Part shown: positions 18,112 through 44,039 of the stretch, piece by piece
How positions within the stretch are numbered: position 1 is the first letter of the stretch
Layout of the letters: each line of letters begins with the position of its first letter
Assembly (NCBI GenBank): GCA_018675975.1
Contig: JABGXB010000003.1
Coordinates: 267,821-331,820, forward strand
From: Candidatus Woesearchaeota archaeon
GTDB taxonomy: Archaea > Nanobdellota > Nanobdellia > Woesearchaeales > JABGXB01
Length of the DNA stretch: 64,000 nucleotides
Direction: 5' to 3'
Made by a program: the position numbers and the translations under genes
Notes under the pieces: model-generated
Told to the model about the DNA's origin: nothing
What the model saw: only the letters and a program-made list of their open reading frames with translations
Databases searched by the model: none

Positions 18112-18678
18112 TTATAAAGGTTTAGAAAATAATTTATTTTTAAATTCAGTCAATTTTTTATCATAATGTAATTTTAAAATATATTGTGATAAGTAATGAA
18201 ATCTAAATTTAAAATCAGTAACATATTTTAAAAATTCATTCCAATTACACTCAATTACTTTTATTTTTTCTCCATTATCTAATGATTGATCATATTTTTT
18301 AATACAATTTTTTGCAATATAAAAATGACAATTCCATTTAATTTTCCCATCTTTATTAAACACTTTAAACAATTTCCAATCATTTGAAACAAAACCACTC
18401 TCTTCTTTTAATTCTCTTTTTGCTGCTTGTAATGGAGTTTCTCCATTATCAATTCTACCACCAAAACAACCATGAACCCAATTATTCATACTAGGTTGAG
18501 TTTCATAAGGAATACATATTTTATTATCTTTTATTGCCAAAATTTGAACACCATCTGCTGTAACTGCAGTTTCAAAATATCCAACTTTACCATCATACAT
18601 TTTTTCTTTCCAAGAATAAATATCAATAAATTTACCAGAATATTTTTTTTTCAAATTATTTTTTTTATTAAAACTCAT
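18112..18678 (-). CDS. NUDIX hydrolase
   Basis: NUDIX box GGRIDNGETPLQAAKRELKEESG. Confidence 0.7.
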   Translation of the reverse strand: MSFNKKNNLKKKYSGKFIDIYSWKEKMYDGKVGYFETAVTADGVQILAIKDNKICIPYETQPSMNNWVHGCFGGRIDNGETPLQAAKRELKEESGFVSNDWKLFKVFNKDGKIKWNCHFYIAKNCIKKYDQSLDNGEKIKVIECNWNEFLKYVTDFKFRFHYLSQYILKLHYDKKLTEFKNKLFSKPL

Positions 18679-18711: not shown

Positions 18712-19335
18712 TTATTTTTTAAAATCTTTTAAAACCATTTCTAATAAATCAGAATTACAATTAAATTTTTTTATTAATTCATGCTCAATATGTCTATTCC
18801 ATTTATAATTTTTCAAATAAACAGGTATTCCTTCATTTGCACATTCTAATGCATACCTTTCTGAATCTTCAACTATAAAAAGTCCATTATTTATTTTAAT
18901 TAATTCTGGTTTAGTAGGTCCATATCCATGATAATATTTTGTTGCAAAAAGTACTTTTTCAACTGAAGGAAAATGTAAACGGATATAATTTTCAGTATCT
19001 CCATATGTATCCATTAATCGACTAGTTAAACATTGAATTCTAAAATATTCAGACAAATCATTAATACAATTTTGTGCATGTGCAATTGGTATTAAATTTG
19101 TATAAGCACCATTTTTGATATATTTCTGAAAAATACTTATTACATATTTAGAATCATGATTAGTGTGAGTAGTAATATCAGCAGATTTTAAATTTTCAAA
19201 TAAAAGTCTATCATTACCAACTAAACCATGATATTCATTCCAAAAATTACAAAAATCAGGTAATAAATGCACTAAAACTTCATCAATATCAAAAAAAATT
19301 AATTTTTTAGAATTATCATTTAAATCAAATTTCAT
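18712..19335 (-). CDS. HAD-superfamily hydrolase, 5'(3')-deoxyribonucleotidase-like
   Basis: HAD motif I FFDIDEVLVHLLPDF resembles the NT5C family (DMDGVLADF). Confidence 0.4.
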   Translation of the reverse strand: MKFDLNDNSKKLIFFDIDEVLVHLLPDFCNFWNEYHGLVGNDRLLFENLKSADITTHTNHDSKYVISIFQKYIKNGAYTNLIPIAHAQNCINDLSEYFRIQCLTSRLMDTYGDTENYIRLHFPSVEKVLFATKYYHGYGPTKPELIKINNGLFIVEDSERYALECANEGIPVYLKNYKWNRHIEHELIKKFNCNSDLLEMVLKDFKK

Positions 19336-24455: not shown

Positions 24456-25112
24456 TTAAATATTATTTTTAGAATTATTATAAATATATTTTGCAGCATC
24501 CAAAAAATCTTTTGCAATAAAAATATCTCCTTTTAATTGTTCAACTTTTTGTCTATCTCCTAGTTCTCTTGTTTTATAACTTTCAACTAAAATTCCAGTT
24601 CCTCCAATATTTAAACCCATTTGAACGTCAGAAAAACGATCCCCAATCATATAAATTTTACAATCTTCTTTTTTTACATTTAAATCAGTTAATGCTTTTT
24701 CAATCATACCAATATTTGGTTTTAAATCAAGACAGTTTTCTCTAATATATTTTTGATCTACTCTTCTTCCTTTTTCTAGTGCTTTTTTTACATAATTAGA
24801 ATCAACAAATGGACATGCATAATAATGATCAACTAAAGCTTCTTCATCTCTTAATTTATCTAAAATATATCTATTTACTTCATGCATTCTCTCAAAGGTT
24901 AAATTATCAAAATTTCCTCCTTCAAGTGCAACTCCAGATTGATTAGTTAAAATAAAAAACCGTGAATTTGGAATCTGATTAATTAATTTAATTCCATCCA
25001 CAACACCATCTAAAAAACTAACTTGTTCACGCCAATTAGAACTACTACCTAAATAAAAATTTTTATCTAAATTTATAGTCCCATCCCTATCAGAAAAAAC
25101 TAAAGTATACAT
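24456..25112 (-). CDS. HAD-IIIA phosphatase (GmhB/HisB-N-like)
   Basis: DRDGTIN, TNQSG, KPNIGM and GDRFSD motifs. Confidence 0.5.
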   Translation of the reverse strand: MYTLVFSDRDGTINLDKNFYLGSSSNWREQVSFLDGVVDGIKLINQIPNSRFFILTNQSGVALEGGNFDNLTFERMHEVNRYILDKLRDEEALVDHYYACPFVDSNYVKKALEKGRRVDQKYIRENCLDLKPNIGMIEKALTDLNVKKEDCKIYMIGDRFSDVQMGLNIGGTGILVESYKTRELGDRQKVEQLKGDIFIAKDFLDAAKYIYNNSKNNI

Positions 25113-29273: not shown

Positions 29274-31034
29274 ATGAATTATCAAATGAAGAATTTTTCC
29301 ACTGAGCAAACTGAATTATTAAGATCATTTCTTTTTACAGCTCCACATAGTAATGTAAGTTTAATTTATCCACAACAATTAGTTGCAGGTGAAGAACTAG
29401 CCCCATTAATTTCAGCATATTCAAGAAGCAATCAACCACTTCAAGAAAGAGTATTAGAATTTGTTGATAAACAAAAAAATACAGAAGCTAAAGCACTATT
29501 ACCACATTTACCAGAATTAATGAAAACATTTAGAAATGAAGATGGTTCATTAAAAATTAGTAAAAAAACAAGAAACTTTTCTAAAAAATGGGTTCTTGCG
29601 CACGGTCACAGTTCAATAAAAGAAATGAATTCTATTTTTGGATGTGTTGAAGGAATTTCAGACATTTGTGGAAAATTAATTACTGGACATCCTTTAGCCC
29701 ACCCTCAAGTTAAGTCATCAAGATATATTTCTTTTGAAGATACATTAGATATGGCATTAGTAGATCCAGACATTCAAAACTTATCTTGTTCAAATGAAAT
29801 TATAGAACATTTAAAAGAATTAAATACAGAATATCTTAATGCAACTAAATATTTAGCAAATGCAGTATTTAAATCTGAAGAAACTGATCAAATAAGAGAA
29901 TTTTTAACTCGAGACTCAGTATTAGATATGCATGGTGAAAAATTATTTAATCGTGCTAAAAAAAAAGATCCAGAATTAGTAAAAACTGACACATTAATAG
30001 AAGAATTAAAATCACAGGCTTATGAAAATATAAATAGTGATGAGTATGTAATGGGACAACTTGAAAAATTTGTTCTTGATAGAAGTAGAGTATATTTACC
30101 TGGTTCAACTAGAACAAGTTTAGGTTTTATGATTGATGGTAGAACATGTGAAGAAATCATTACAACATTATTAACTAGTCCTTTAATAGAAGCCCAAAGT
30201 TTTGGTAATCAAATTTGGACTGAAACAAAAAAAATCTCACCTGTTTTATTAGGAGATCAATCCCATATTAAAAAAGATGAATGGAAATATGAGTTAGATA
30301 CGGACTTTAGAAAAGAATTAGCTACACGATTAGATTATATTGTCATGCACTCTGAACAAAAATTTGGAAGAGTTTATTCACCAAGCTTTGTACATTCAAG
30401 AGGAGAAGATACAAGATCTGCAGTTATGGCTGCATATAAATATAGTGATTTTTCTTTTGATGATTTAATAGAACAATTAAAAGAAAAAGATGTTAAATGG
30501 ATTTTAGATAGAACTCACGAACATAGAAATAAATTTGATCAATTACATGAAAGTGGTGGTCATGGTGGTATGCTTACTGAAATGACTATGCCATATCATG
30601 GTTATAGAGATATGTTTAGACATAGAAAAGGAGCAAGATCTAATCAATTATATACAACAGTTCACGGTTTTGAAAATGTTGAAATTTTTAATCATTTTGA
30701 TATAAATTCAAGATATGAATTATTAATGAATAAAAATAATGAATTATTTAGAAAAGCAGCAAAAGAAAATCCCCATGCTGCACAAAAAGTTGTTGCCTTT
30801 GGTCAATTATGTAGAGCAGCACACAGTTGGTCATTAGAACAAATTGGATATATTGCAAGAATAAGAGCGAATATTGAAACCGGAAATATTAGTTATGTAA
30901 AAACTGTTCATCAAATTGTAGATGGTGTAAAAAGATTATCACCACAATTAGCATCAAAAATAAATTATAATCAAGAAATGTTTCCAGAACATATTTGGAA
31001 AGAAGGTTATGATTTATTTAGAAGTAAAAAATAA
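29274..31034 (+). CDS. tandem ThyX-like (flavin-dependent thymidylate synthase family) protein, N-terminal copy degenerate
   Basis: Residues ~115-160, HGHSSIKEMNSIFGCVEGISDICGKLITGHPLAHPQVKSSRY, align to the ThyX core HGHETPFEH...WFRHRIASYNELSGRY with RHR replaced by TGH. A C-terminal segment, GHGGMLTEMTMPYHGYRDMFRHRKGARSNQLY, retains RHR. Confidence 0.45.
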   Translation: MNYQMKNFSTEQTELLRSFLFTAPHSNVSLIYPQQLVAGEELAPLISAYSRSNQPLQERVLEFVDKQKNTEAKALLPHLPELMKTFRNEDGSLKISKKTRNFSKKWVLAHGHSSIKEMNSIFGCVEGISDICGKLITGHPLAHPQVKSSRYISFEDTLDMALVDPDIQNLSCSNEIIEHLKELNTEYLNATKYLANAVFKSEETDQIREFLTRDSVLDMHGEKLFNRAKKKDPELVKTDTLIEELKSQAYENINSDEYVMGQLEKFVLDRSRVYLPGSTRTSLGFMIDGRTCEEIITTLLTSPLIEAQSFGNQIWTETKKISPVLLGDQSHIKKDEWKYELDTDFRKELATRLDYIVMHSEQKFGRVYSPSFVHSRGEDTRSAVMAAYKYSDFSFDDLIEQLKEKDVKWILDRTHEHRNKFDQLHESGGHGGMLTEMTMPYHGYRDMFRHRKGARSNQLYTTVHGFENVEIFNHFDINSRYELLMNKNNELFRKAAKENPHAAQKVVAFGQLCRAAHSWSLEQIGYIARIRANIETGNISYVKTVHQIVDGVKRLSPQLASKINYNQEMFPEHIWKEGYDLFRSKK

Positions 31035-31066: not shown

Positions 31067-31696
31067 ATGAATTTAAGTATATATAGTGAGATTCCAATGC
31101 ATCAAGTTATTGAAGAAGTTAGAAAATCCCCTATGTTAAAATCTGATACTCAATTTCCTTACAAAAATGCAAATATTAGTTTACGTAATGTCGGTATGGG
31201 TGAAATTAATCCAACAAGTTTATATGCATTAAAAGCTAATTTGGATTTTCAAAAAAACTTAAGAGAATATATATTAAATAGATTTGGTTTTGATACATTA
31301 AGATTAAGTTCTGGTCTTATATTAGAAAATAAAGATGGGGAGCGTCAAACATTAATACCTCCTATAGTTGAAGTATCAGAAAGAGAAGTTAAGTTCATTC
31401 CACAAAAAGATGAATTATCATATGAAAATTCATATAAAATAAAAATACCGTGTTTACTTGATGGTATTCATCGCGCACTATGTGCAAAAGAATTAGGTAT
31501 AGATTTAAATGTAATTTTTATTTATGATTCAGATACCAATTATCCTGTTTATGCACATCCAAATGAATGGGATTTAGTTAAAATTTGTGATAGTATACCA
31601 AAAGAAAAAAGTCAAAAAAAAATGTATTTAAGAGATGATCATTCTAGTTTGTATAAATCATTTGCACACTTAGGTTCAAGTGGTCTTAGAAAATGA
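31067..31696 (+). CDS. hypothetical protein, ParB/Srx-like domain
   Basis: Segment IPCLLDGIHRALCAKELGID fits the ParB/sulfiredoxin DGxHRxxAxxxLG signature. Otherwise no matches. Confidence 0.3.
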   Translation: MNLSIYSEIPMHQVIEEVRKSPMLKSDTQFPYKNANISLRNVGMGEINPTSLYALKANLDFQKNLREYILNRFGFDTLRLSSGLILENKDGERQTLIPPIVEVSEREVKFIPQKDELSYENSYKIKIPCLLDGIHRALCAKELGIDLNVIFIYDSDTNYPVYAHPNEWDLVKICDSIPKEKSQKKMYLRDDHSSLYKSFAHLGSSGLRK

Positions 31697-32850
31697 GTAA
31701 TTTAGTTTTAGTTGAAGGAATAAGTGGAGCTGGTAAAAGTACAGCAATTAATTTTATTCAATCTTATCTTTCAACATTCAATATTCAAAGTCACACATTT
31801 AATGAACCCGGTCATATGCGAGATGAAATTAAAAAATATCATAATAGAGAAGACAGAGATCTTCAATTAGAATTTGATCATTATGTTTTATCCAGAAAAG
31901 TTGATTTACATCATAAAGTAATGCCAACTATAAAAAATCACCCAAAGGATACTATCCTCATTGATCGAAGTTGGATTTCTACAATGGTTTATCAACAAAC
32001 AGAACAATGTCCAATGATAAATATTCGTGATTATCATTCCTTTTATCCCAAACACAATTTAGCATTACTCTTAATTTGTGATCCTGAAACTGCATATCAA
32101 AGAATTTTAAAAAGAAAAGAAACTCAAGGAATAGAATTAAGTACATCTGAAAATCCAAAAAGAATTGCTGAACTTAGAAAAAGTTATATTGAAGCATTTG
32201 ATTTAGTAGATTATTCTGTAATTATTAATACTGATGGAAGTGAAAATGCAGTTAATTGTATTTTAAAATCTTATATGAATAAATTATTAGGAATTAAAGA
32301 AAAAAAAATTGTTTTTTTAGATAAAGATGGTACTTTAGTTGACAATTCTAAATATCCAGAAGTAATTCCAACGGATGAAATTCTTTTTGCAGATACATTA
32401 GAAGGATTATATAAATTAAAAAGTGCAGGATATGAATTTCATATGATTTCTTCTCAACCATGGGTTGCTAAAGGTCAATTAAGTTTAGATCAAACAAATG
32501 AAATTTTTGAAAGTGTTATAGAACAATATAAAAAATATGGAATTGAATTTACTGGATATGGTTTTTGTGAACATCATAGAAGTGATAATTGTCCAGATAA
32601 AAAACCAAATACAGGTTTATTAGAACAAATAGCAACTCAACAAAATATTGATATTTCTCAAAGCTTTTTTATAGGAGATATGGAATCGGATATTGAATGC
32701 GGTTATAATTTTGGATTACAAACTGGATTAGTAACTAAATATTCAAATGCAAAAACAATAGATAATTTATCTCAACAAAGATTTAAAAGAACTCCAAATT
32801 ATACTGCAATTAATTTGAATGAAATTGCAAATCAAATAATTGAAAATTAA
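31693..32850 (+). CDS. tmk: thymidylate kinase fused to HAD-IIIA phosphatase domain
   Basis: Tmk motifs: P-loop VLVEGISGAGKST, NEPGH, and the DRY-like IDRSWISTMVYQ. HAD motifs: FLDKDGTLV, ISSQ, DKKPNTGLL, IGDMESD. Confidence 0.6.
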   Translation: MSNLVLVEGISGAGKSTAINFIQSYLSTFNIQSHTFNEPGHMRDEIKKYHNREDRDLQLEFDHYVLSRKVDLHHKVMPTIKNHPKDTILIDRSWISTMVYQQTEQCPMINIRDYHSFYPKHNLALLLICDPETAYQRILKRKETQGIELSTSENPKRIAELRKSYIEAFDLVDYSVIINTDGSENAVNCILKSYMNKLLGIKEKKIVFLDKDGTLVDNSKYPEVIPTDEILFADTLEGLYKLKSAGYEFHMISSQPWVAKGQLSLDQTNEIFESVIEQYKKYGIEFTGYGFCEHHRSDNCPDKKPNTGLLEQIATQQNIDISQSFFIGDMESDIECGYNFGLQTGLVTKYSNAKTIDNLSQQRFKRTPNYTAINLNEIANQIIEN

Positions 32851-33025: not shown

Positions 33026-33041
33026 ACACTAGGAATAGTGT
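33026..33041. promoter_or_regulatory. candidate NrdR-box-like palindrome (ACACTAGGAATAGTGT)
   Basis: ACAC-N8-GTGT imperfect palindrome about 115 bp upstream of nrdR. A half-site-like ACACAATATAC lies at 33060. Confidence 0.25.
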
Positions 33042-33154: not shown

Positions 33155-33604
33155 ATGAAATGCCCACATTGTAATTCAGATGATTTGAAAGTAAATGAAA
33201 CAAGAGAAACAGAATCAAATAGTTTTAGAAGAAGAAGAGAATGCAATAATTGTGAAGAAAGATTTACTACATATGAAAAAATTCAAGAATTATTAATTAG
33301 TGTAAAAAAAGAAAGTGGAAAATTAGAAAATTATACTAAAGAAAAATTAGAAAAAAGTTTTTTGATTGCTTGTAATAAAAGACCAATAACAAGAATTCAA
33401 ATATTAAAAATTATTGAAAACATTGAAAATAAAATAAGAAATAATTTTAAAAATGAAATTTCATCTAAGACATTAGGTGAATATGTAATGGAAGAATTAA
33501 AAATTTTAGATCCAATATCATATATTAGATATGCTTCAGTATACAAAGATTTTGATGATTTAGATAAATTTAATCAAGAATTAATATTATTAAAGGTGAA
33601 TTGA
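33155..33604 (+). CDS. nrdR: transcriptional repressor NrdR
   Basis: Zinc ribbon CPHCNSDD...CNNCEERFTTYE followed by an ATP-cone. Its stop abuts the nrdJ start. Confidence 0.8.
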   Translation: MKCPHCNSDDLKVNETRETESNSFRRRRECNNCEERFTTYEKIQELLISVKKESGKLENYTKEKLEKSFLIACNKRPITRIQILKIIENIENKIRNNFKNEISSKTLGEYVMEELKILDPISYIRYASVYKDFDDLDKFNQELILLKVN

Positions 33605-36600
33605 ATGGAACAAAGTATTGAAACAAAACGAACTGGTATAAAAGTTAAAAAAGTTTTTTGTAGTGATAATATAAGCCCATTTGAAACTGTTGAATTTGAA
33701 AACAGATCAAGTGTGATAAAAAATAGAGATGGTTCTATATTATTTGAAATAAATAATATTCATGCTCCAAAAAAATGGTCGCAAGTTGCCGTAGATATAA
33801 TGGCACAAAAATATTTTAGAAAAAGTGGAGTTCCACAATATGATGAAAATCAAAATGAAATTAAAGATGAATTTTCAAATATAATTACAGGTTCAGAAAC
33901 AGATATTACTCAACCAATAAAAAGATTAACTGGATGTTGGAGACATTGGGGAGAAAAATATAATTATTTTGATACGCAACAAGATGCAATTAATTTTGAA
34001 CAAGAAATACAATATATGTTATTACATCAAATCGCTGCACCAAATAGTCCACAATGGTTTAATACGGGACTTAAATGGGCATATAATATTTCTGGAAGTG
34101 CACAAGGACATTATTATGCTGAACATGAAACAGGTGAAATTAAATTATCTGAGGATGCATATTCAAGACCTCAACCGCATGCATGTGCGGATTATTATAC
34201 ACAAGTGTATACTGATAAGGGTACAATGTATATTGGAGATATAGTTGAAAATAATTTAACTAATATAAAAGTATTTGATGGAGAAAAATATGTAAAAGTT
34301 CTTGCAATCAAAAACAATGGAAAAAAAGAAGTGTTTAAAATTCAATTAAAAAATGGAAATTATATTAAATTAACTCAAGATCATTTAGTGCTATCATCAC
34401 AAAAAAGAAAAAAAAATGGTGGAAATTATAACTGGAATTATGTAAAAGATGTAAAATTAGGTCACAAATTACAACAACCATTAATTCTAGATATTAAAGA
34501 AAAAAATGTATTTAGTGATGATTTAGCAAAAGCAAGATTAGCCGGTTGGATAGTTGGAGACGGATCAGTTGGAATTTATGAAAATGTAATGAGATTGGAA
34601 ATTATTTCTATTAAAGAAGAAGAATTTGAATCAATAATAAATGATATTCAAGAAGTATTTGGACAAGAAGTTAATTTTTGGATTAGTAAATTTAAAACAA
34701 AAAACGAAAATTTAGATGGTAAAAGAATTCATTTAGCAGGTAAAAAAATACATAAATTAATTGAAGACTATGATTTACTAAAATCTTCATTTAATGCAGA
34801 AGTACCTCAAAAAATAATTAATGGGTCACCACAAGAAAAAAGAGAATTTTTAAAAGCCTTATTTCAAGCAGATGGTTGTGTCAGAATTAGAAAAGATGAA
34901 AATAGAAATTCAGGAGATGTGTGTTTAACTACAATTTCAGAAAATCTTTCATTTGGAGTTTTACAATTATTAAATTCATTAGGTATTTATTGTAGAATTA
35001 ATAAATATAGTGATAAAAGAGAAAATCGAAAAGATGTTAATCAAGTTATAGTATCTTATGGTAGTGCAAGAGAACAATTTCAAGAACAAATTTCTTTTAT
35101 ATGTTCTCAAAAAACCGAAAAATTAGAATTATTAAATAAAATTATAACAAAATCAAAAACACTTCCATTAATAAGAGAAGAAACAATTATTTCAATTGAA
35201 TCTGAAGGCATTAAAGATGTTTATGATATTCAAACAGAATCTTCAAAATTTCTTGGAAATGGAATTGTAATACATAATTGTTTTATTCAATCAGTTAAAG
35301 ATGATTTAGTTAATCAAGGTGGAATATTTGACCTTTGTACAAGAGAGGCAAGAATATTTAAATATGGTTCTGGAACTGGTTCAAATTTTTCACAATTAAG
35401 AGGTCAGTCTGAAAAATTATCAGGTGGTGGAAGATCTTCAGGTATGATGTCATTTTTAAAAATATTTGATGTGGCAGCTGGAGCAATTAAATCAGGTGGT
35501 ACAACAAGACGTGCAGCAAAAATGGTTTGTCTTGATTTGGATCATCCAGAAATTATTGAATTTATTGATTGGAAAGCAAATGAAGAAAAAAAAGTTGCTA
35601 ATTTAATTACTGGTTCAAAAAATTCAAAATATCATTTACAAAAAATATTAAAAGAAGCAAGTTCAAATTCAAATATAGAAAAAAATCCAAAATTAAAATC
35701 AGCAATTAAAGAAGCTATTGAACAAAATATTTCTTTAAATTATATTGATAGAGTTTTAAAACTTGCAAATCAAGGAATAACTGAATTTGAAACTCCCGAG
35801 TTTGATAATCATTTTGAAGGTGAAGCATATTCTACAGTTAGTGGACAAAATTCAAATAATTCAATAAGAATACCAAATTCATTTTATGAAGCTGTTCATA
35901 AAGACTTAGATTGGAATTTAAAAAATAGAACTGATGGAAAAATTTCAAAAACTGTAAGAGCAAAATGGCTTTATGATAAAATTGGACAAGCTGCTTGGGC
36001 TTGTGCAGATCCTGGTGTTCAATTTGATACGACAATTAATGAATGGCATACATGTCCAAAAGATGGAAGAATTAATGCAAGTAATCCTTGTTCTGAATAT
36101 ATGTTTTTAGATGATACTGCATGTAATTTAGCTAGTATTAATTTAATTCATTTTATTAATGATAGTGGACATTTTAATGAAGAAAAATTTGCTCATGCAT
36201 GTGAACTTATGACAATTGTTTTGGAAATTTCAGTTACTATGGCTCAATTTCCAAGTGATGAAATTGCAAAAAGAAGTTGGGAATATAGAACATTAGGTTT
36301 AGGTTTTGCAAATTTAGGGACATTACTCATGGTTAAAGGAATTTCTTATGATAGTGATGAAGCTAGAAGTATAGCTGGAGGAATTAGTGCCATAATGTGT
36401 GGAACTGCTTATGAAACATCTGCTAAACTCGCAAAACATCTAGGACCTTTTAACAGATATGAACATAATAAAGATGACATGTTAAGAGTTATTAGAAATC
36501 ATAGACGTGCTGCATATAATGTTTCAAATGAAGAGTATGAAAAATTAGAAATTACTCCAGTTGGCATTGATGAAAATTTATGTCCAAATAATATTTTACA

Positions 36601-38146
36601 AAAAGCTAGAAATTCATGGGATAATGCACTTGAACTTGGACAAGAATATGGATTTAGAAATGCACAAGTAACTGTTATTGCACCAACCGGAACTATTGGA
36701 CTTTTAATGGATTGTGATACTACAGGAGTTGAGCCAGACTTTGCAATTGTTAAATATAAAAAACTTGCAGGCGGTGGTTATTTTAAAATTGTAAATCATT
36801 CAGTTATTAAAGCATTGAGAACTTTAGGTTATGAAAAAGATCAAATTATTGATATTAAAAAATATTGTATAGGTCATCAAACATTAGTGGGTTGTCCAAC
36901 CATAAATCATAAAATTTTAAAAGATAAAGGATTTGATGAAGAAAAATTAGAACTTATTGAAAAACAATTAGAAACTGCATTTGATTTGAGTTTTGTTATG
37001 AATAAAAATATTTTAAGTGAAGAATTTTTAAAAAAATTAGGATTTAGTGATGAACAATTAAATTCTGAAATGTTTGATTTACTAGAAGAATTAAAATTTA
37101 CAAAAGAACAAGTTGATATTGCAAATGAATATGTTTTTGGAACAATGACAGTTGAAGATGCTCCATACTTATTAGAAGAACATTATTCAGTTTTTGATTG
37201 TGCAAATAAATGTGGAAAAAAAGGTAATAGATATATTGACACTTATGGACATATTAATATGATGGCAGCAGTTCAACCTTTTATTTCTGGTGCAATTAGT
37301 AAAACAATTAATATGGATTCAGAAGTTAGTGTTAAAGATATTTTAGATGCTTATGAAGCTAGTTGGAAATTAATGCTTAAAGCAAATGCATTATATAGAG
37401 ATGGATGTAAATTAAGTCAACCATTAAATACTGCTGTTTTTGAAAGTGAATACAATTTAAATTTATCTGAAGAAGATATTGATGAAACAGTTGATTCAGC
37501 AGCAATTCAACAACAAATTCAAACAATGAAAGCAAATCAGTTGCCGAGAAAAAGAGGTGGTTTTGTTCAAGAAGCAACTGTTGCAGGTCACAAAATATAT
37601 TTAAGAACTGGTGAATATAATGACGGAAAATTAGGTGAAATTTTTATTGACATGTATAAGGAAGGTGCTGCCTTTAAAGCACTAATAAATTGTTTTGCAG
37701 TTGCAATAAGTAAATCTCTACAATTTGGTGTTCCTTTAGAAGAATTTGTTGAACAGTTTACATTTACTAGATTTGAACCGGCAGGTTTAGTAACTGGACA
37801 TGAATATATTAAAAATTCTACGTCAATATTAGATTATGTATTTCGTGTTCTAGGCTATGAATATTTAGGTAGAGATGATTTAATTCATGTAAAACCTAAA
37901 AGAAAACCACTAGACATTATAGAACATGAAGATGATCCAAGAGATAAACATAAAACACTAGATAGTTTTTCTAATAGAAAAAATGTAGAAGAGACTAGAA
38001 ACGAAATGCTTTTTAAAAAAATTAATACTGCCAAATCAAGAGGATATACTGGAGAAGCATGTGGTTCTTGTGGTAGTATGAGAGTAAAAAGAAATGGAAG
38101 TTGTACACTTTGTGAAGATTGTGGTTCTACTAGTGGTTGCAGTTAG
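33605..38146 (+). CDS. nrdJ: ribonucleotide reductase, class II-like large monomeric type, with one intein
   Basis: N-terminal [17 protein letters not shown]; thiyl-radical loop NASNPCSEY; C-terminal CxxC...CxxC zinc ribbon. No glycyl-radical motif. Extein is 1148 aa. Confidence 0.8.
34184..35278 (+). mobile_element. intein with LAGLIDADG homing-endonuclease domain inside nrdJ
   Basis: Begins at Cys (PQPHA|CADYY) and ends VIHN|CFIQ (His-Asn, then the +1 Cys). Two LAGLIDADG blocks: [11 protein letters not shown] and [11 protein letters not shown]. 365 aa. Confidence 0.8.
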
Positions 38147-40023: not shown

Positions 40024-41961
40024 TTAATTGTTATATTTATTAAAAATAAAAATACCAGAACCTAAAATAAATATACTAAAAAAGATAAAAATATACCAAA
40101 TTATATTAACCATTTTACTATTTGTACTATTTTGAATTTCATTTACAATAATATTGCTATTTAATGAATCTTCATTTGAATTGATATTAATATTATTTAA
40201 TTCTAAATTTAAATTTAATAATTTTTTTTCCATTTCATTTCTTTTTGATTCCATTTCTAAATTAATTTTATCAATCTTATTTTTTAATTCATTATTCATA
40301 TTATTAACATCCTTTGAATTATCAACAATATTTGAATTATCATTTAAGCATTTAATTACATTAATTGAAATTGATTTTTTCAATAATTCATTATTATTTT
40401 TATTAAATGCTTGTAAAATAATATCACGTTCCCCTAATTTATTATTAATATTATAATTAAAACTAAAAGATTGATCATCTCCTTCATCTAAACTAAATTC
40501 TTTATTTAATTCAATATCATCATCAGTTAATTGTAAAGTTAAGTCTTCAATATCTCTACTACCAACATTTACTAAATCTCCATTTATTTTTATACCATTA
40601 AATGAACATAAATCTATTTCTTTTGTATAAAATAAATTATCAATAATTAATTCTTCTCTATCTTTTTTTATTTTTACTCTGATAGTAAAATTTGCTTCAT
40701 GAAAATAACTCTCATTATCCAATACACTAGCATATAAATTGAAATTTGATCTTTCTTCTTTATTATCAAATGGTATTATTGATTCATCAAAATCAATATC
40801 AATAGTTTCACAATCATTTTTTACAATATCTAATTCTTCTTCATCAATATCAATTCTAAACATTTCACCATATAATCTTATATTTTCTAAATCTGTATTT
40901 TTTACATTACAAATTTTAACTTCAGCTGATATTTGATCCCCTACTTTAAAATCATCATCATAGGCTCTACCTGAATTATCAAAACGTTCTTTTTTATCAT
41001 TTCTATGTAATTTTACAAATTCAAATTCAAGTGGATTTTTAGGATTTACATTAATTTTTCCATCAATTGTAATTACTTCATTTAAAACATTTGTTAATTC
41101 TAATTGAAAACTATTTTCACCATAATTTAATTGAGGATTAAAAATAATATCATTAACTTCCAGTCCATTAAATTTCCATTTATAATTTACAATAAAATTA
41201 CTATTTGTTAAATCTAAAAATTGTTCATATAAGTTAAATGAACTTAAATCCTCTTCATTTAAATTAATAGTAATATTATTATTTAATGATAAAAAATCAC
41301 TATGTGTTTTATTTGTTACAATAGTATATATTTTCCCATTAGGAATATTATTACTATCATTTTTTTGAAATAAAACATGCAAATAAAGATTCTTATTTTG
41401 ATAATTAATTAAATCACCATCATTTAAAATAATTGTAAGTTTTTTATCACCGCCTTGATAAAAAGGATAAACATTCCAATCATCTTTATTTAAACCAAAT
41501 TTTTCATAAGTAAAATCATCATTTGAATTTAAAATTAAAGCATTCCATAAAAAATTCATTCCACTATTAATATATCTACTAATCAATTCTGAATATATTA
41601 TTTCATTTGAATCATTAGGTCTATCAATTACATTTATAGTTTCTTGTTTAATTTTATATTGACCTAAACTATTTTTTAAAATAAATGTAATATTATGAAT
41701 TCCACTATTATGATATACATGATTTATATTATTTAAATTATAATGTTTTAATTCATTTGTACCAAAATCAACTATTGAATAATCTAAATTAAAACCGCTT
41801 TGAGTTAAAGTATTTAATGTAAAATTAAAAGGCTCATTTACATAAATAGTTGTAGGTAATTCCACAGTATAATCCATACCATTTTCAAATACACCATTTA
41901 CAGAAATTAAACTAATTGATATAAAAAATATTAAAACTAATAATTTATTTATTATTTTCAT
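40024..41961 (-). CDS. large cell-surface protein (signal peptide, C-terminal TM anchor), paralogue A
   Basis: Signal-like N-terminus and C-terminal coiled coil plus TM. Shares the blocks DNSGRAYDDDFKVGDQISAEVKICN and FDESIIPFDNKEERSNFNLY with the neighbouring 688-aa protein. Confidence 0.5.
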   Translation of the reverse strand: MKIINKLLVLIFFISISLISVNGVFENGMDYTVELPTTIYVNEPFNFTLNTLTQSGFNLDYSIVDFGTNELKHYNLNNINHVYHNSGIHNITFILKNSLGQYKIKQETINVIDRPNDSNEIIYSELISRYINSGMNFLWNALILNSNDDFTYEKFGLNKDDWNVYPFYQGGDKKLTIILNDGDLINYQNKNLYLHVLFQKNDSNNIPNGKIYTIVTNKTHSDFLSLNNNITINLNEEDLSSFNLYEQFLDLTNSNFIVNYKWKFNGLEVNDIIFNPQLNYGENSFQLELTNVLNEVITIDGKINVNPKNPLEFEFVKLHRNDKKERFDNSGRAYDDDFKVGDQISAEVKICNVKNTDLENIRLYGEMFRIDIDEEELDIVKNDCETIDIDFDESIIPFDNKEERSNFNLYASVLDNESYFHEANFTIRVKIKKDREELIIDNLFYTKEIDLCSFNGIKINGDLVNVGSRDIEDLTLQLTDDDIELNKEFSLDEGDDQSFSFNYNINNKLGERDIILQAFNKNNNELLKKSISINVIKCLNDNSNIVDNSKDVNNMNNELKNKIDKINLEMESKRNEMEKKLLNLNLELNNININSNEDSLNSNIIVNEIQNSTNSKMVNIIWYIFIFFSIFILGSGIFIFNKYNN

Positions 41962-41972
41962 TGTACCTCAAT

Positions 41973-44039
41973 TTAAATATAAACTAATAAAATAAGTCCA
42001 AATATTAACATCAATACAACACCAATTGCTATAATTAATAATATTGTTTGTTTTTTTTGTTCTGATTTATTTAAATTATCTTGTAAATCATTATCTAAAT
42101 TTATGTTTTGATTTTCTAATAATAATTTTTTATATTCACTAATAAAATCATCATTATTATTTTCAACACCATTTAATTCATTTAATAATTTTAAATTCTT
42201 TTCATATAAATCTTGATCAGTTTGAATATTATTTGAACAATCATTTAATGAAATATCTAATTCTTTATAGTCAACTATATAATTATCCCTATATACTTCT
42301 GCAAAAAATTTATACTGTCCAATGGATGCAGAATTTGGAAAATTAAAATTTGTGAAAGCACTAAATTCATTATCATTTTTATAATCAATATCGAAATCTT
42401 TTATTGATTCAAAATTGAATTGCTCTGAATAAAATCTAACATGCCCATTTTCATCATTATCACCAATATTAAATATTAATGCAGATAATGAAATTGCTTT
42501 ATTATCAAAACAATTTTGTACTACAGTTGGAGTTACTAAAAATTTTTTGAATAATAAATCATGATTTTTTCTATCTACTTTTAATTTAACTGTAAAATTA
42601 TCTTCTTGAAAATAATCTAAATCATCTCTACCTTCAATATTAATAAACATATTAAATGTTTTATCTTCAGCATCATAAGGAATGTGATCTTTATCAAATT
42701 TAACTGAACGTACTTCACACTCATCTTCTGATAATGTAAAATCTGATTTCTCATCATCATCTAAATCACTACCATCATCAATATCTTTTATTATAGCACT
42801 AATTGCAATATCTTCAATATTAATATCTGAATTACTATCATAATCATTACATACTTTAATTTCTACACTAAAATCTTGACCTGGCTTAATATCTTTTGAA
42901 TATCTTTCTCCACTATTTCTAATTCTATCTGATTTGTCATTAACAATTACTTTTACTCTATCAATTCTTAACATTTTTCTTTGAATCGGTTTAATATCTG
43001 CTTCAATCACTTTACCATTAAAAGATAATTTAATTTCACCCAATAAATCAATATCTATTGGACGACTTGAACTTGCATGAATATTAAATGTTTTATTTTC
43101 TAATTCATTTAATGCAAAATTAGTTTCAAAATTACTATATTCAATAAATGAATCAAAAGAACTAATATCTAAACCAATATTTTCTAAATTTGATTCACCA
43201 GTATTTTTAACAGTGAAATTAAAATCAAATTCAGATTCTAATCCACTAATATTAATTTGAATTTCATTAGGTATAATTGTTAATTCCTGTATTTTTTCTC
43301 TTACTTCAATATTTGAAATTTGATAATTTTTATTAAAATTAAATTCTGACTGATCTACATTTAAATCGTATTTATACAAACCGCTAACTAAATCATTACT
43401 AATAAAAACTTCAAAACTTAAATTTTTCACTTCAGATTTATTTAATAAAATTATTTTCTTTTCAACATCTAAAGGAAAAAAACTTGATGTTTTTAATAAA
43501 TTATTAAAATTAATTTCAACTTGAGTATCATAATTTGATTGACTAATAAATTCAAATTCAATAGTATTTGTTTTACCCTTTACTATTTTTTTTGTTATTG
43601 CCTTTACATCAAATTGTGTATTTCTAGAAATATCTAAACTAATTGGCAATAATGTTTGTTCAGATTTACTATCTGTTGCAATTATTGTCCCATTATATTT
43701 ACCATAAGTAGGATTATTTGATAAATCAATAAAAAAATCAACTGATTTTTGTCCATTAGCATCAAAATTTCCTAATTGTGCATTTACACCATTTAATTCA
43801 ATAGCTAAAAATTCACCATTAGCATTTGATAAAACAAGTCCACTAAGTGCAATATTTACATTTGTTGAATCTAAATTTGTAATTTTAAACTGACTATTAA
43901 CTTTAGATGTTCTAAGTCCATTACTTAAATCACTTAATTCTATACTTTCTTTGTCAAAATTAGGTACTGCATTACTAAATGCTGAAACTAATGTTGCAAA
44001 TATAATCAAAAATGCAAATAAATGCGTTAATTTTTTCAT
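41973..44039 (-). CDS. large cell-surface protein, paralogue B
   Basis: Same architecture as paralogue A. Blocks RNSGERYSKDIKPGQDFSVEIKVCN and FDKDHIPYDAEDKTFNMFINIEG. Confidence 0.5.
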   Translation of the reverse strand: MKKLTHLFAFLIIFATLVSAFSNAVPNFDKESIELSDLSNGLRTSKVNSQFKITNLDSTNVNIALSGLVLSNANGEFLAIELNGVNAQLGNFDANGQKSVDFFIDLSNNPTYGKYNGTIIATDSKSEQTLLPISLDISRNTQFDVKAITKKIVKGKTNTIEFEFISQSNYDTQVEINFNNLLKTSSFFPLDVEKKIILLNKSEVKNLSFEVFISNDLVSGLYKYDLNVDQSEFNFNKNYQISNIEVREKIQELTIIPNEIQINISGLESEFDFNFTVKNTGESNLENIGLDISSFDSFIEYSNFETNFALNELENKTFNIHASSSRPIDIDLLGEIKLSFNGKVIEADIKPIQRKMLRIDRVKVIVNDKSDRIRNSGERYSKDIKPGQDFSVEIKVCNDYDSNSDINIEDIAISAIIKDIDDGSDLDDDEKSDFTLSEDECEVRSVKFDKDHIPYDAEDKTFNMFINIEGRDDLDYFQEDNFTVKLKVDRKNHDLLFKKFLVTPTVVQNCFDNKAISLSALIFNIGDNDENGHVRFYSEQFNFESIKDFDIDYKNDNEFSAFTNFNFPNSASIGQYKFFAEVYRDNYIVDYKELDISLNDCSNNIQTDQDLYEKNLKLLNELNGVENNNDDFISEYKKLLLENQNINLDNDLQDNLNKSEQKKQTILLIIAIGVVLMLIFGLILLVYI

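What the first reader, a model, noticed from the sequence alone, without database searches (positions are those of the whole stretch)
31693..32850. Thymidylate kinase fused to a HAD-IIIA (GmhB/PNKP-like) phosphatase
The N-terminal 200 aa have the Tmk P-loop (EGISGAGKST), the NEPG motif and the DRY-type motif (DRSWISTMVYQ). The C-terminal 180 aa have all four HAD motifs (DKDGT, S, KPNTG, GDMESD). A kinase and a phosphatase in one polypeptide resembles bifunctional polynucleotide kinase/3'-phosphatases, but here the kinase is nucleotide-monophosphate type. Possible roles are proofreading or salvage, such as dephosphorylating a non-cognate or 3'-phosphorylated nucleotide, or processing a modified dNMP. 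A second standalone GmhB-like HAD lies at 24456-25112.
Basis: seen in the sequence. Interest (0 to 1): 0.55.

Follow-up and report, generated by a model that had tools for sequence, protein, structure and literature searches.

The report
Thymidylate kinase fused to phosphatase
A tiny symbiotic archaeon has one gene that joins the enzyme activating the DNA building block thymidylate to a phosphate-removing enzyme, and it always sits beside an unstudied nucleotide-binding protein, which points to an undescribed way minimal cells manage DNA precursors.

Summary
Window 31693-32850(+) is one 385-aa ORF with an N-terminal thymidylate-kinase domain (Pfam 63 bits) and a C-terminal HAD-IIIA phosphatase domain. 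All catalytic motifs are present, plus a Zn loop of the GmhB/HisB-N type. It is not an artefact: the identical protein occurs in at least 23 independent contigs, and 35-45%-identical fusions occur in 8 Woesearchaeota-type species genomes. The fusion is rare, with about 12 clusters among 1.84 billion representatives.

The gene is the last of a conserved, translationally coupled cassette: a large divergent ThyX-like protein, then ParB-CE (PF24392, an uncharacterised ParB/sulfiredoxin-fold protein), then Tmk-HAD. The cassette lies next to nrdR and a class II ribonucleotide reductase.

In DPANN archaea and CPR bacteria, ParB-CE is nearly always adjacent to a phosphohydrolase (35 of 44 unbiased loci). 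The fold varies: HAD-IIIA, NT5C-type deoxyribonucleotidase, or HD. Tmk is often adjacent too. One orthologous cassette carries an HD-Tmk fusion instead.

I therefore read the HAD domain as a deoxypyrimidine-nucleotide phosphatase working with Tmk and ParB-CE in a thymidylate node. It is not a PNKP-like or heptose enzyme. Its substrate is untested. It is a new variant of known kinds, of moderate interest.

The parts
31693..32850 (+). Single ORF of 385 aa: the Tmk-HAD-IIIA fusion protein. Its ATG overlaps the stop codon of the upstream gene (ATGA at 31693-31696).
31711..32244 (+). Thymidylate-kinase domain (residues 7-184). Motifs: P-loop EGISGAGKST (31714-31743), NEPG (31801-31812), YVLSR (31882-31896), DRSWISTMVYQ (31963-31995), LID RILKRKETQG (32101-32130).
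   Evidence: Pfam PF02223 63.2 bits. Aligns to Aquifex Tmk 2pbr over residues 4-187. Family-invariant residues are E38, P39, R68, R92, Q101, R137, R141. Foldseek TM about 0.8 to Tmk structures.
32299..32847 (+). HAD-IIIA phosphatase domain (residues 203-385). Motifs: I FLDKDGT (32314-32334), family-specific loop YPEVIPTDEI (32353-32382), II ISSQPW (32446-32463), Zn loop CEHHRSDNCPD (32566-32598), III KKPNTG (32599-32616), IV GDMESD (32674-32691).
   Evidence: TIGR01662 82.4 bits and TIGR01656 86.7 bits. Aligns to HisB-N 2fpr and GmhB 4pnh/3l8e. Invariant residues are D210, D212, S253, Q255, W257, C292, H294, C300, K303, K304, P305, G328, D329, D333. Foldseek match to 3l8h with TM 0.83.
31067..31696 (+). 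ParB-CE protein (209 aa, PF24392). It is a ParB/sulfiredoxin-fold protein of unknown function and the constant partner of the phosphohydrolase. Invariant motifs are PPIVE and DGxHR.
   Evidence: Pfam 54.4 bits. It lies immediately upstream of every fusion. Alignments A2/A4. AF2 pLDDT 90. Weak Foldseek matches to pNOB8 ParB-N, sulfiredoxin, Noc and SbnI.
29274..31034 (+). Large divergent ThyX-family protein (586 aa), first gene of the cassette.
   Evidence: Pfam Thy1 PF02511, 40 bits against cutoff 24.8. Orthologues lie upstream of ParB-CE in L001-4, L006-9, L011-12 and L095. Alignment A3.
33155..33604 (+). NrdR-type regulator (Zn ribbon + ATP-cone) directly downstream. This is context for a dNTP-synthesis gene cluster.
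33605..38146 (+). Class II (B12-type) ribonucleotide reductase interrupted by a LAGLIDADG intein. Context.
33026..33041 (.). Candidate NrdR box ACACTAGGAATAGTGT upstream of nrdR. It is the only exact match to ACACWANNNNTWGTGT in the window.
   Evidence: The consensus is recalled from my own knowledge of NrdR boxes.

Best explanation
The gene encodes a genuine bifunctional enzyme of a low-GC DPANN (Woesearchaeota/Nanoarchaeia-type) archaeon. It is the last gene of a translationally coupled cassette: ThyX-like, then ParB-CE, then Tmk-HAD. The cassette sits beside nrdR and ribonucleotide reductase and serves deoxypyrimidine (thymidylate) metabolism.

Shown: both domains are intact and conserved, the cassette is conserved, and the ParB-CE-phosphohydrolase pairing is conserved.

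Inferred: (1) The N-terminal domain is the cell's dTMP kinase and converts dTMP, made by the ThyX-like enzyme or salvaged, to dTDP. (2) The C-terminal HAD-IIIA domain is a deoxypyrimidine-nucleotide phosphatase. It is functionally equivalent to the NT5C-type 5'(3')-deoxyribonucleotidases and HD phosphohydrolases that occupy the same position next to ParB-CE in other DPANN and CPR genomes. Its most likely substrate is a dNMP such as dUMP or dTMP, or a closely related phosphoester. (3) ParB-CE is an NTP-binding ParB/Srx-fold partner. It is either a small-molecule kinase in the manner of SerK/SbnI (candidate substrates: deoxyuridine/thymidine, or dTDP) or a nucleotide-sensing regulator. With the phosphatase and Tmk it would form a kinase/phosphatase node that sets how much pyrimidine deoxynucleotide goes on to dTTP and how much is returned to the nucleoside level. 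That return could allow interconversion or keep uracil and other non-cognate nucleotides out of DNA. Fusion to Tmk fixes stoichiometry and proximity of two members of this node.
For: Domain identity and intact catalytic residues.

The fusion is real and inherited. The identical protein occurs on 23 contigs read. Eleven fusions were found. Eight GTDB species genomes carry it, all Woesearchaeota or 'archaeon' MAGs. About 12 full-length clusters occur among 1.84e9 representatives.

The cassette is conserved. ParB-CE lies immediately upstream of every fusion, and the ThyX-like gene lies upstream in most. There is an ATGA start/stop overlap. RNR is adjacent in the window and in L003.

There is an independent second fusion. 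L095 has dCTP deaminase, then ThyX-like (47% identical), then ParB-CE (38-45% identical), then HD-Tmk (P0042), so a different phosphohydrolase fold is fused at the other end of the same Tmk clade. The HD of P0042 and the HD genes next to ParB-CE in L092 and L094 share the same best NCBIfam model, NF007515.

An unfused form exists. L122 has Tmk, HAD-IIIA and ParB-CE as separate adjacent genes.

An unbiased survey used loci fetched only through ParB-CE. Of 44 non-redundant loci with flanks, 31 have a phosphohydrolase as direct neighbour and 35 have one within two genes (15 NT5C, 14 HAD-IIIA, 6 HD). The background is 1 of 164 other genes. Tmk lies within two genes in 7 loci. The local labels were validated with Pfam: NT5C was above its cutoff in 6 of 7, and L126 and L154 are true Thymidylate_kin at 126 and 95 bits.

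Other neighbours are nucleotide enzymes: NUDIX, a deaminase, a nucleoside phosphorylase.

There is a precedent for a ParB-annotated protein being a small-molecule kinase: SerK (PMC5120207). ATP-binding SerK and Srx fall within the ParB-CTPase fold (PMC12704722).

A family-specific invariant Trp (W257) replaces the Gly of GmhB/HisB right after motif II. It could stack on a base; this is inference.
Against: There is no biochemical evidence for any member.

As far as I know, HAD-IIIA enzymes of the GmhB/HisB-N subgroup are not known nucleotidases.

A dTMP/dUMP phosphatase fused to a dTMP kinase would be a futile cycle unless the substrates differ or the activities are regulated.

The window already encodes a separate NT5C-family protein at 18712-19335, so the HAD domain need not have that same activity.

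The Tmk domain is below the NCBIfam equivalog cutoff (69.6 vs 83.25).

The Ser/Thr after the Walker-A Lys is not conserved across the family (GKGT, GKEG, GKDK), and the P-loop Asp of classical Tmk is Ser here. Kinase specificity could therefore differ.

I could not check whether these genomes hold another tmk, or tdk, dut or ndk.

ParB-CE matches known ParB/Srx structures only weakly (Foldseek E 0.03-0.1).
Confidence: 0.55

Rival explanations
1. The phosphohydrolase supplies the thymidylate synthase rather than opposing the kinase. ParB-CE (as an NTPase) and/or the HAD or HD domain would convert dUTP/dUDP, or dCTP/dCDP, coming from the reductase or dCTP deaminase into the monophosphate used by the ThyX-like enzyme. 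This is a dUTPase-like step. The fused protein would then catalyse the steps on both sides of ThyX in one complex: dUTP to dUMP, dUMP to dTMP, dTMP to dTDP.
For: Fused enzymes usually serve the same pathway direction. In L095 a dCTP deaminase, which makes dUTP, directly precedes ThyX-like, ParB-CE and HD-Tmk, and no dUTPase is seen in the cassette. RNR is adjacent in the window and in L003. ParB-family proteins hydrolyse NTP to NDP (PMC12704722). HD enzymes commonly act on di- and triphosphates (own knowledge).
Against: In 15 of 44 unbiased loci the partner of ParB-CE is an NT5C-type enzyme. That family is known as a deoxyribonucleoside monophosphatase (own knowledge). GmhB/HisB-type HADs hydrolyse phosphomonoesters (own knowledge). 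Many ParB-CE/phosphohydrolase pairs occur without ThyX or Tmk nearby.
Confidence: 0.2
2. A pathway for a non-canonical pyrimidine. The very divergent ThyX-like enzyme would make a modified dUMP derivative, the Tmk-like domain would phosphorylate it, and the phosphatase would destroy the canonical dTMP or dUMP. Some Bacillus phages replace thymine this way, using a dUMP-modifying synthase, a dNMP kinase and a dTMP nucleotidase (own knowledge).
For: The ThyX-like protein is 586 aa and so divergent that a family profile finds no solved ThyX. The RHR motif is lost in its N-terminal ThyX motif set. The P-loop Asp is replaced by Ser, and Walker A varies in the kinase. Kinase plus nucleotidase plus synthase homologue is the enzyme set such phages use.
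Against: The thymine- and sugar-recognising residues Y100 and Q101 and the stacking aromatic residue are conserved as in ordinary Tmk. ParB-CE also pairs with ordinary Tmk (126 bits) in other lineages. The cassette is chromosomal, sits beside housekeeping genes, and is absent from viral contigs. There is no glycosyl-, amino- or methyl-transferase partner.
Confidence: 0.07
3. A PNKP-like nucleic-acid end-healing enzyme, with a 5'-kinase and a 3'-phosphatase acting on DNA or RNA ends. This is.
For: The domain order is the same as in T4 Pnkp, kinase N-terminal and HAD C-terminal (own knowledge). There is a weak PNK3P Pfam hit just above its cutoff (24.6 vs 22). An ATP-dependent DNA ligase lies next to one ParB-CE/HD pair (L092). 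AAA_33-type kinases lie near or are fused to some members.
Against: The kinase is Tmk-family with conserved nucleotide-monophosphate binding residues. Scores are far below the cutoffs for TIGR01663 (25 vs 502.8) and TIGR01664 (33.8 vs 107.65). The top 50 structural matches are Tmk or GmhB/HisB, with no PNKP. The neighbours are nucleotide-pool enzymes.
Confidence: 0.05
4. The HAD domain is an ordinary sugar-phosphate or histidinol-phosphate phosphatase (GmhB/HisB-N) that became fused to Tmk without functional coupling.
For: The best-scoring models and structures are GmhB and HisB-N, and the Zn loop is retained.
Against: Scores are about half the equivalog cutoffs. No heptose or histidine genes were seen in any locus. 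The fusion, and independently an HD-Tmk fusion, are conserved in the same cassette. The stand-alone orthologues always pair with ParB-CE.
Confidence: 0.05
5. An assembly or frameshift artefact joining two genes.
For: None found. One related locus (L122) has separate Tmk and HAD genes.
Against: The identical ORF occurs in 23 independently assembled contigs. Fusions at 35-45% identity occur in 8 species genomes. The inter-domain linker is continuous and confidently modelled (pTM 0.87).
Confidence: 0.01

Closest known systems
Thymidylate kinase (Tmk, PF02223/TIGR00041; e.g. Aquifex aeolicus 2PBR, S. aureus 2CCJ)
   Same: Same fold (Foldseek TM about 0.8). Shared features: P-loop, xEPG, (F/Y)xxxR, DRx...S..(A/V)YQ, and a LID with two Arg.
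   Different: It is fused to a phosphatase. The P-loop Asp (EGIDGSGK) is Ser (EGISGAGK). The third residue of the DR(Y/H/F) motif is Ser. In the family the Walker-A Ser/Thr is often Gly, Glu or Asp. The score is below the NCBIfam equivalog cutoff.
GmhB (D,D-heptose-1,7-bisphosphate phosphatase) and the HisB N-terminal histidinol-phosphate phosphatase (HAD-IIIA with Zn loop; 3L8H, 2GMW, 2FPR)
   Same: Four HAD motifs, the Cys-x-His...Cys-x-(Cys/Asp) loop, K/R-K-P motif III, and the same fold (TM 0.83).
   Different: Scores are half the equivalog cutoffs. It has its own signature (YPEVIPTD loop, SSQPW instead of TNQSG/TNQDG). It is never found with heptose or histidine genes, and always with ParB-CE and usually Tmk or ThyX-like.
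Polynucleotide kinase/3'-phosphatase (T4 Pnkp, mammalian PNKP)
   Same: A P-loop kinase and a HAD-IIIA phosphatase in one chain. The order is the same as in T4 (own knowledge).
   Different: The kinase is a nucleotide-monophosphate kinase of the Tmk family, not a polynucleotide kinase. The HAD is of the GmhB/HisB subgroup. The genomic context is dNTP synthesis, not repair.
5'(3')-deoxyribonucleotidases NT5C/NT5M (PF06941) acting against thymidine kinase and TMP kinase in substrate cycles that set dTTP pools (own knowledge of the mammalian system)
   Same: NT5C-family genes occupy the position of the HAD-IIIA next to ParB-CE, and sometimes next to Tmk, in 15 of 44 loci. The proposed logic is the same: a kinase and a phosphatase at the dTMP node.
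   Different: The HAD subfamily differs. Here the phosphatase is covalently fused to the kinase. The third partner is a ParB/Srx-fold protein rather than a known deoxynucleoside kinase.
Plant FMN hydrolase/riboflavin kinase (AtFMN/FHy): a HAD phosphatase fused to the kinase that makes its substrate (own knowledge)
   Same: It is a precedent for opposing kinase and HAD-phosphatase activities on one small metabolite in one polypeptide.
   Different: The families, substrate and organism are unrelated.
SerK / SbnI / sulfiredoxin (ParB/Srx-fold enzymes that transfer phosphate from ATP or ADP), as relatives of the partner ParB-CE
   Same: DGxHR-type motif. Sulfiredoxin, SbnI and ParB N-domains are the only structural matches. 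SerK shows that a 'ParB' can be a small-molecule kinase (PMC5120207).
   Different: The matches are weak (E 0.03-0.1). There is no sequence-level hit to any solved structure. No activity is known.

Membership tests
Thymidylate kinase (PF02223 / TIGR00041) | Score above the curated family cutoff | tested here: inconclusive
   Pfam 63.2 bits, above cutoff 27 (met). NCBIfam equivalog TIGR00041 69.6 bits, below 83.25 (not met).
Thymidylate kinase (PF02223 / TIGR00041) | P-loop GxxxxGK[ST] for ATP | tested here: met
   The window protein has GISGAGKST. In the wider fusion family the residue after Lys is often G, E or D.
Thymidylate kinase (PF02223 / TIGR00041) | dTMP-site residues: xEP, stacking aromatic + Arg, DR motif Arg, Tyr-Gln after the DR motif, LID arginines | tested here: met
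   E38, P39, R68, R92, Q101, R137 and R141 are invariant. Y100 is about 90% conserved. Y64 or F occupies the stacking position. These align with the same residues of Aquifex Tmk. The residue roles are from my own knowledge.
Thymidylate kinase (PF02223 / TIGR00041) | P-loop acidic residue (EGxDGxGK) that contacts the 3'-OH of dTMP | tested here: not met
   Ser11 is nearly invariant in the family, against Asp in Aquifex Tmk and in the unfused Tmk of L122.
Thymidylate kinase (PF02223 / TIGR00041) | ATP:dTMP phosphotransferase activity | not testable with these tools
   Needs an enzyme assay.
HAD superfamily, subfamily IIIA (TIGR01662) | Score above cutoff and the four HAD motifs, including both Asp of DxD | tested here: met
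   82.4 bits against 44.6. D210, D212, S253, K304, D329 and D333 are invariant in 10 fusion proteins.
Histidinol-phosphatase-type domain with Zn loop (TIGR01656) | Score above cutoff and Cys/His metal loop before motif III | tested here: met
   86.7 bits against 84.15, which is marginal. C292, H294 and C300 are invariant. The fourth ligand is D302 or Cys.
GmhB (NF006506 / TIGR00213) | Equivalog-level score | tested here: not met
   89.7 vs 178 bits; 70.3 vs 149.6 bits.
GmhB (NF006506 / TIGR00213) | Association with heptose pathway genes (GmhA, HldE/HddA) | tested here: not met
   None in the window or in L001-L019 neighbourhoods.
HisB N-terminal histidinol-phosphatase (TIGR01261) | Equivalog-level score | tested here: not met
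   75.9 vs 140 bits.
PNKP / DNA 3'-phosphatase (TIGR01663, TIGR01664, PF08645) | Family-level score for the phosphatase and a polynucleotide-kinase type kinase domain | tested here: not met
   25 vs 502.8 bits and 33.8 vs 107.65 bits. Only Pfam PNK3P is marginal, at 24.6 vs 22. The kinase domain is Tmk-type. No PNKP appears in the top 50 Foldseek hits.
NT5C 5'(3')-deoxyribonucleotidase (PF06941) | Sequence membership | tested here: not met
   The fusion has no PF06941 hit. The link to NT5C is positional: NT5C holds the same place beside ParB-CE. This supports 'works like', not 'is a member'.
ParB-CE (PF24392) - the partner protein 31067-31696 | Score above cutoff; conserved PPIVE and DGxHR | tested here: met
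   54.4 bits against 23. P98, E102, D132, G133, H135, R136 and W168 are invariant in 62 sequences.
Flavin-dependent thymidylate synthase ThyX (PF02511 / TIGR02170) - the first gene 29274-31034 | Score above cutoff and the RHR...S..RY signature | tested here: inconclusive
   Pfam 40 bits against 24.8 (met). TIGR02170 26.9 bits against 87.9 (not met). SxRY is kept without RHR in the N-terminal half, and RHR is kept in the C-terminal half. No solved ThyX is found by profile. No internal duplication is detectable.

The most novel reading that the evidence does not exclude
ParB-CE, a phosphohydrolase (HAD-IIIA, NT5C or HD, interchangeably) and Tmk form a previously unrecognised three-part thymidylate module specific to ultra-small, salvage-dependent prokaryotes (DPANN archaea and CPR bacteria). 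In this reading ParB-CE is a new ParB/sulfiredoxin-fold enzyme. It could be a non-orthologous deoxyuridine/thymidine kinase, a dTDP kinase, or an NTP-gated regulator of the nucleotidase. The Tmk-HAD and HD-Tmk fusions would then be two independent 'Rosetta stone' fusions revealing that module.
Probability: 0.3. Interest if true: 0.75.

Novelty: new variant of a known kind. Interest (0 to 1): 0.58.

Why it matters
DPANN archaea and CPR bacteria are generally reported to lack de novo nucleotide synthesis and to live on scavenged precursors. How they balance dNTP pools is largely unknown. This locus gives a concrete, testable handle. It contains a rare kinase-phosphatase fusion. An independent HD-Tmk fusion ties together three functions: Tmk, a nucleotide phosphohydrolase, and the uncharacterised family PF24392. 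The locus also attaches a function-level hypothesis to a protein family of about 100 clusters that is annotated only as 'hypothetical' (about 104 found).

If ParB-CE proves to be a nucleoside or nucleotide kinase, or an NTP sensor, that would extend the catalytic range of the ParB/Srx fold. It could also fill missing steps in metabolic reconstructions of these lineages. If instead the HAD domain is only a housekeeping nucleotidase, the finding is a tidy but ordinary example of gene fusion within a pathway.

Tried and rejected
1. Frameshift or assembly artefact: rejected.

2. Anti-phage defence system: PADLOC gave only generic Tmk-like hits for the fusion (PDC-M51B, VakA) and nothing for ParB-CE or ThyX-like. 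The cassette lies among housekeeping genes and is absent from viral contigs.

3. Phage origin: PHROGs gave only 'thymidylate kinase', and there is no viral locus with the fusion.

4. Single-sequence search for ParB-CE homologues found nothing. The profile of 14 locus-derived sequences was needed.

5. Sequence and profile searches of ParB-CE and ThyX-like against PDB found nothing.

6. The roughly 725-aa conserved neighbour (L005, L014, L015, L018) is not a ThyX relative: hhalign probability 0.2%.

7. Internal duplication of the ThyX-like protein: not detectable by profile-profile comparison, so my motif-based 'pseudo-dimer' reading stays a guess.

8. NrdR box upstream of the cassette: none. 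There is only one candidate, upstream of nrdR itself.

9. Literature: no paper in the held library mentions a Tmk-HAD fusion, PF24392, or a ParB-like protein linked to thymidylate metabolism.

10. PPK3-type polyphosphate kinase (Tmk homologues in Crenarchaeota, seen): considered and set aside, because the dTMP-site residues are conserved and the context is dNTP metabolism. It was not tested directly.

11. The first metagenome scan with the broad ParB-CE alignment failed for lack of a conserved stretch and was repeated with the narrower A5.

12. One local HMM (hd2) was contaminated by the Tmk half of P0042. Its spurious labels were removed before counting.


Full report
**1. Observation**

The window is very AT-rich, about 23% G+C. 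It encodes archaeal markers: CDC48, Spt5-NGN/KOW, FtsZ and HTH_45. The closest relatives of the gene in question come from 'Candidatus Woesearchaeota' and 'Nanoarchaeia' MAGs. The source is therefore a DPANN archaeon.

At exactly 31693-32850(+) there is one 385-aa ORF. Pfam and NCBIfam place a thymidylate-kinase domain at residues 7-184 (PF02223, 63.2 bits). They place a HAD-IIIA phosphatase domain at about residues 203-359 (TIGR01662, 82.4 bits; TIGR01656, 86.7 bits).

An AlphaFold model built on ten family members is confident (pLDDT 87.8, pTM 0.87). It matches Tmk structures and GmhB/HisB-N structures domain by domain. No solved chain covers both domains.

The identical protein is called on 23 contigs read from independent assemblies, so a frameshift artefact is excluded.

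**2. The family**

A word-indexed search found 11 proteins with both domains at 36-44% identity. A scan of one genome per GTDB species found eight, all DPANN MAGs. An exhaustive HMM search of 1.84 billion representatives found only about 12 full-length clusters. The fusion is therefore inherited within a narrow lineage and is globally rare.

In the alignment of ten fusions (A1) the following Tmk residues are invariant: E38, P39, R68, R92, Q101, R137 and R141. Y100 is nearly invariant. These align with the corresponding residues of Aquifex Tmk. From my knowledge of Tmk structures, they are the dTMP-phosphate, stacking, DR-motif, base/sugar-recognition and LID residues.

The HAD nucleophile and general acid (D210, D212), S253, K304, D329 and D333 are invariant. 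So are C292, H294 and C300 of a Zn loop, with D302 or Cys as the fourth ligand. Both halves therefore look catalytically competent.

There are peculiarities:
- The P-loop Asp of classical Tmk is Ser.
- The residue after the Walker-A Lys is often Gly, Glu or Asp.
- Where it is Glu or Asp, the Asp of the DR motif is Asn or Ser (P0005, P0008, P0031, P0055).
- The HAD has its own signature: a YPEVIPTD loop, and SSQPW in place of TNQSG/TNQDG.

**3. Context**

The gene's ATG overlaps the stop codon of the upstream gene (ATGA). That upstream gene (31067-31696) is a 209-aa member of Pfam PF24392, 'ParB-CE'. Upstream of it lies a 586-aa, highly divergent ThyX-family protein at 29274-31034 (PF02511, 40 bits). 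Downstream lie nrdR and a class II ribonucleotide reductase with an intein.

The same cassette (ThyX-like, ParB-CE, Tmk-HAD) is found around the fusions of other genomes. ParB-CE is immediately upstream of every one of them. A reductase is adjacent in L003.

**4. What ParB-CE is, and why it bears on the HAD domain**

A profile of ParB-CE sequences retrieved about 104 clusters. All are stand-alone proteins of about 220 aa, annotated 'hypothetical', from DPANN archaea and CPR/Patescibacteria bacteria. Its model is confident (pLDDT 90) but resembles known structures only weakly. The top matches (E 0.03-0.1) are ParB N-domains, sulfiredoxin with ATP, Noc and SbnI. PPIVE and DGxHR are invariant.

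Its genomic neighbour is the informative part:
- In Nanoarchaeia genomes lacking the fusion, a stand-alone orthologue of the HAD-IIIA domain (40-47% identical) lies directly upstream of ParB-CE.
- In other genomes the neighbour is an HD phosphohydrolase with overlapping start and stop (L092, L094).
- In others it is an NT5C-family 5'(3')-deoxyribonucleotidase (L093, L086).

I then fetched 80 metagenome loci using ParB-CE alone as bait and labelled neighbours with local HMMs. Ten labels were checked against Pfam. Of 44 non-redundant loci with at least 600 bp on both sides:
- 31 have a phosphohydrolase as direct neighbour;
- 35 have one within two genes (15 NT5C, 14 HAD-IIIA, 6 HD);
- the background among other genes of the same loci is 1 of 164;
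- 7 also have a Tmk within two genes, including canonical Tmk at 126 and 95 bits.

Other neighbours seen by eye are NUDIX hydrolases, a CDA/dCMP-type deaminase and a nucleoside phosphorylase.

**5. Two 'Rosetta stone' loci**

L122 has Tmk, HAD-IIIA and ParB-CE as three separate, tightly packed genes.

L095 has the orthologous cassette, with ThyX-like 47% identical and ParB-CE 38-45% identical. It is preceded by a dCTP deaminase. Its last gene is an HD-Tmk fusion (P0042), with the hydrolase at the other end of the kinase. The HD part shares its best NCBIfam model (NF007515) with the HD genes that neighbour ParB-CE elsewhere.

So a phosphohydrolase has been fused to this Tmk clade at least twice, using unrelated folds. 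This is strong evidence that the two activities work together, and that the fold of the hydrolase matters less than its activity.

**6. Interpretation**

Shown:
- Both domains are intact.
- The fusion is conserved.
- The cassette with ThyX-like and ParB-CE is conserved.
- The ParB-CE/phosphohydrolase pairing is statistically strong.
- Three hydrolase folds are interchangeable at that position.
- Tmk recurs as the third member.

Inferred:
- NT5C enzymes are pyrimidine-preferring deoxyribonucleoside monophosphatases (own knowledge). The cassette is otherwise thymidylate-specific. The HAD-IIIA domain is therefore most likely a deoxypyrimidine-nucleotide phosphatase.
- The Tmk domain is the cell's dTMP kinase.
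- ParB-CE is an NTP-binding partner. It could be a phosphotransferase like SerK or SbnI (precedent: PMC5120207; PMC12704722) or a nucleotide-gated regulator.

Together these would form a kinase/phosphatase node at dUMP/dTMP.

A serious alternative is that the hydrolase, with or without ParB-CE as an NTPase, makes dUMP from dUTP or dUDP for the ThyX-like enzyme. The fusion would then bracket the synthase step. The dCTP deaminase in L095 favours this alternative. The frequent NT5C partner argues against it.

I give lower weight to a modified-pyrimidine pathway, to a PNKP-like repair enzyme, and to an unrelated GmhB/HisB function.

**7. Weak points**

- There is no biochemistry for any member.
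- The window has its own NT5C-family gene at 18712-19335.
- The Tmk domain misses the NCBIfam equivalog cutoff and has an atypical P-loop.
- I could not survey whole genomes for tmk, tdk, dut or ndk.
- The ParB/Srx assignment of ParB-CE rests on Pfam, on conserved motifs and on weak structural matches.

**8. Novelty and score**

Both domains are well known. The databases already hold these proteins, named 'HAD-IIIA family hydrolase', 'dTMP kinase' or 'heptose bisphosphate phosphatase'. I found no description of the architecture, of PF24392, or of their association in the literature I could search.

I class the finding as a new variant of known kinds. The fusion itself is of moderate interest. 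The interest is raised by the module it reveals in DPANN and CPR.

Noticed in passing
window 31067-31696 (+), and L086-L175: PF24392 'ParB-CE' is a family of about 100 clusters of hypothetical proteins of about 220 aa. In these searches it turned up only in DPANN archaea and CPR bacteria. It is nearly always next to a phosphohydrolase (HAD-IIIA, NT5C or HD) and often next to Tmk. No function is known.
   Followed up: yes
window 29274-31034 (+): This is a 586-aa ThyX-family protein so divergent that a family profile finds no solved ThyX. The N-terminal part keeps 'GHNSIKE' and 'QVKSSRY' but lacks RHR. The C-terminal part has 'HRHRRG' and 'ELRS..GHxSYR'. An internal duplication could not be detected.
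   Followed up: partly
window 33155-33604 (+) and 33026-33041: An NrdR-type repressor (Zn ribbon + ATP-cone), usually a bacterial regulator, is present in an archaeal genome directly ahead of the reductase. A single palindrome ACACTAGGAATAGTGT, resembling an NrdR box, lies about 115 bp upstream of nrdR. It is the only exact match to that pattern in the window.
   Followed up: partly
window 33605-38146 (+): A class II ribonucleotide reductase (1513 aa) is interrupted by an intein with a LAGLIDADG homing endonuclease and carries a C-terminal TSCPD domain. The reductase next to the cassette in L003 also carries an intein.
   Followed up: no
window 18712-19335 (-) and 18112-18678 (-): A separate NT5C-family 5'(3')-deoxyribonucleotidase (38 bits) sits next to a NUDIX hydrolase, 12 kb from the cassette. 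This genome therefore has both an NT5C-type enzyme and the HAD-IIIA domain.
   Followed up: partly
window 24456-25112 (-): This is a second, stand-alone HAD-IIIA phosphatase (218 aa) between ftsZ and the Spt5 gene. It is only 33% identical over 70 aa to the fused HAD. Its function is unknown.
   Followed up: partly
L005 9103-11268, L014 4570-6753, L015 872-3061, L018 6585-8750, L113 2628-4811 (all minus strand): A conserved protein of about 725 aa with no Pfam match lies convergent to the HAD/ParB-CE pair or the fusion in several Nanoarchaeia loci. It is not related to the ThyX-like protein and is absent from the window.
   Followed up: partly
alignment A1; P0005, P0008, P0031, P0055: There is co-variation in the kinase. 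Where the residue after the Walker-A lysine is Glu or Asp (GKEG, GKDK, GKDT), the Asp of the DR motif is Asn or Ser. This looks as if the Mg-binding carboxylate had moved. The P-loop Asp of classical Tmk is Ser throughout this clade.
   Followed up: partly
P0055, P0145, P0042; L095: The same Tmk clade forms other fusions: an AAA_33-type P-loop kinase + Tmk (P0055), Tmk-Tmk (P0145) and HD-Tmk (P0042). In L095 a 421-aa three-domain dCTP deaminase precedes the cassette.
   Followed up: partly
L086/L087 3422-4222 (-), L157, L159, L164: In CPR loci a distinct P-loop kinase of about 230-240 aa (weak AAA_28 hit, 'LLDRALFD' motif, weak similarity to Tmk) sits beside ParB-CE in place of a canonical Tmk. 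In L086 an NT5C-like and a RelA/SpoT-type HD gene are also present.
   Followed up: partly
window 40024-41961 (-) and 41973-44039 (-): Two large adjacent proteins (645 and 688 aa) have no Pfam match. The first has a weak hit to a putative S-layer protein model (PACE-CTERM).
   Followed up: no
window 45155-46825 (-): A 556-aa radical-SAM protein has a weak match to the B12-binding/radical-SAM family TIGR04013. Its function is unknown.
   Followed up: no
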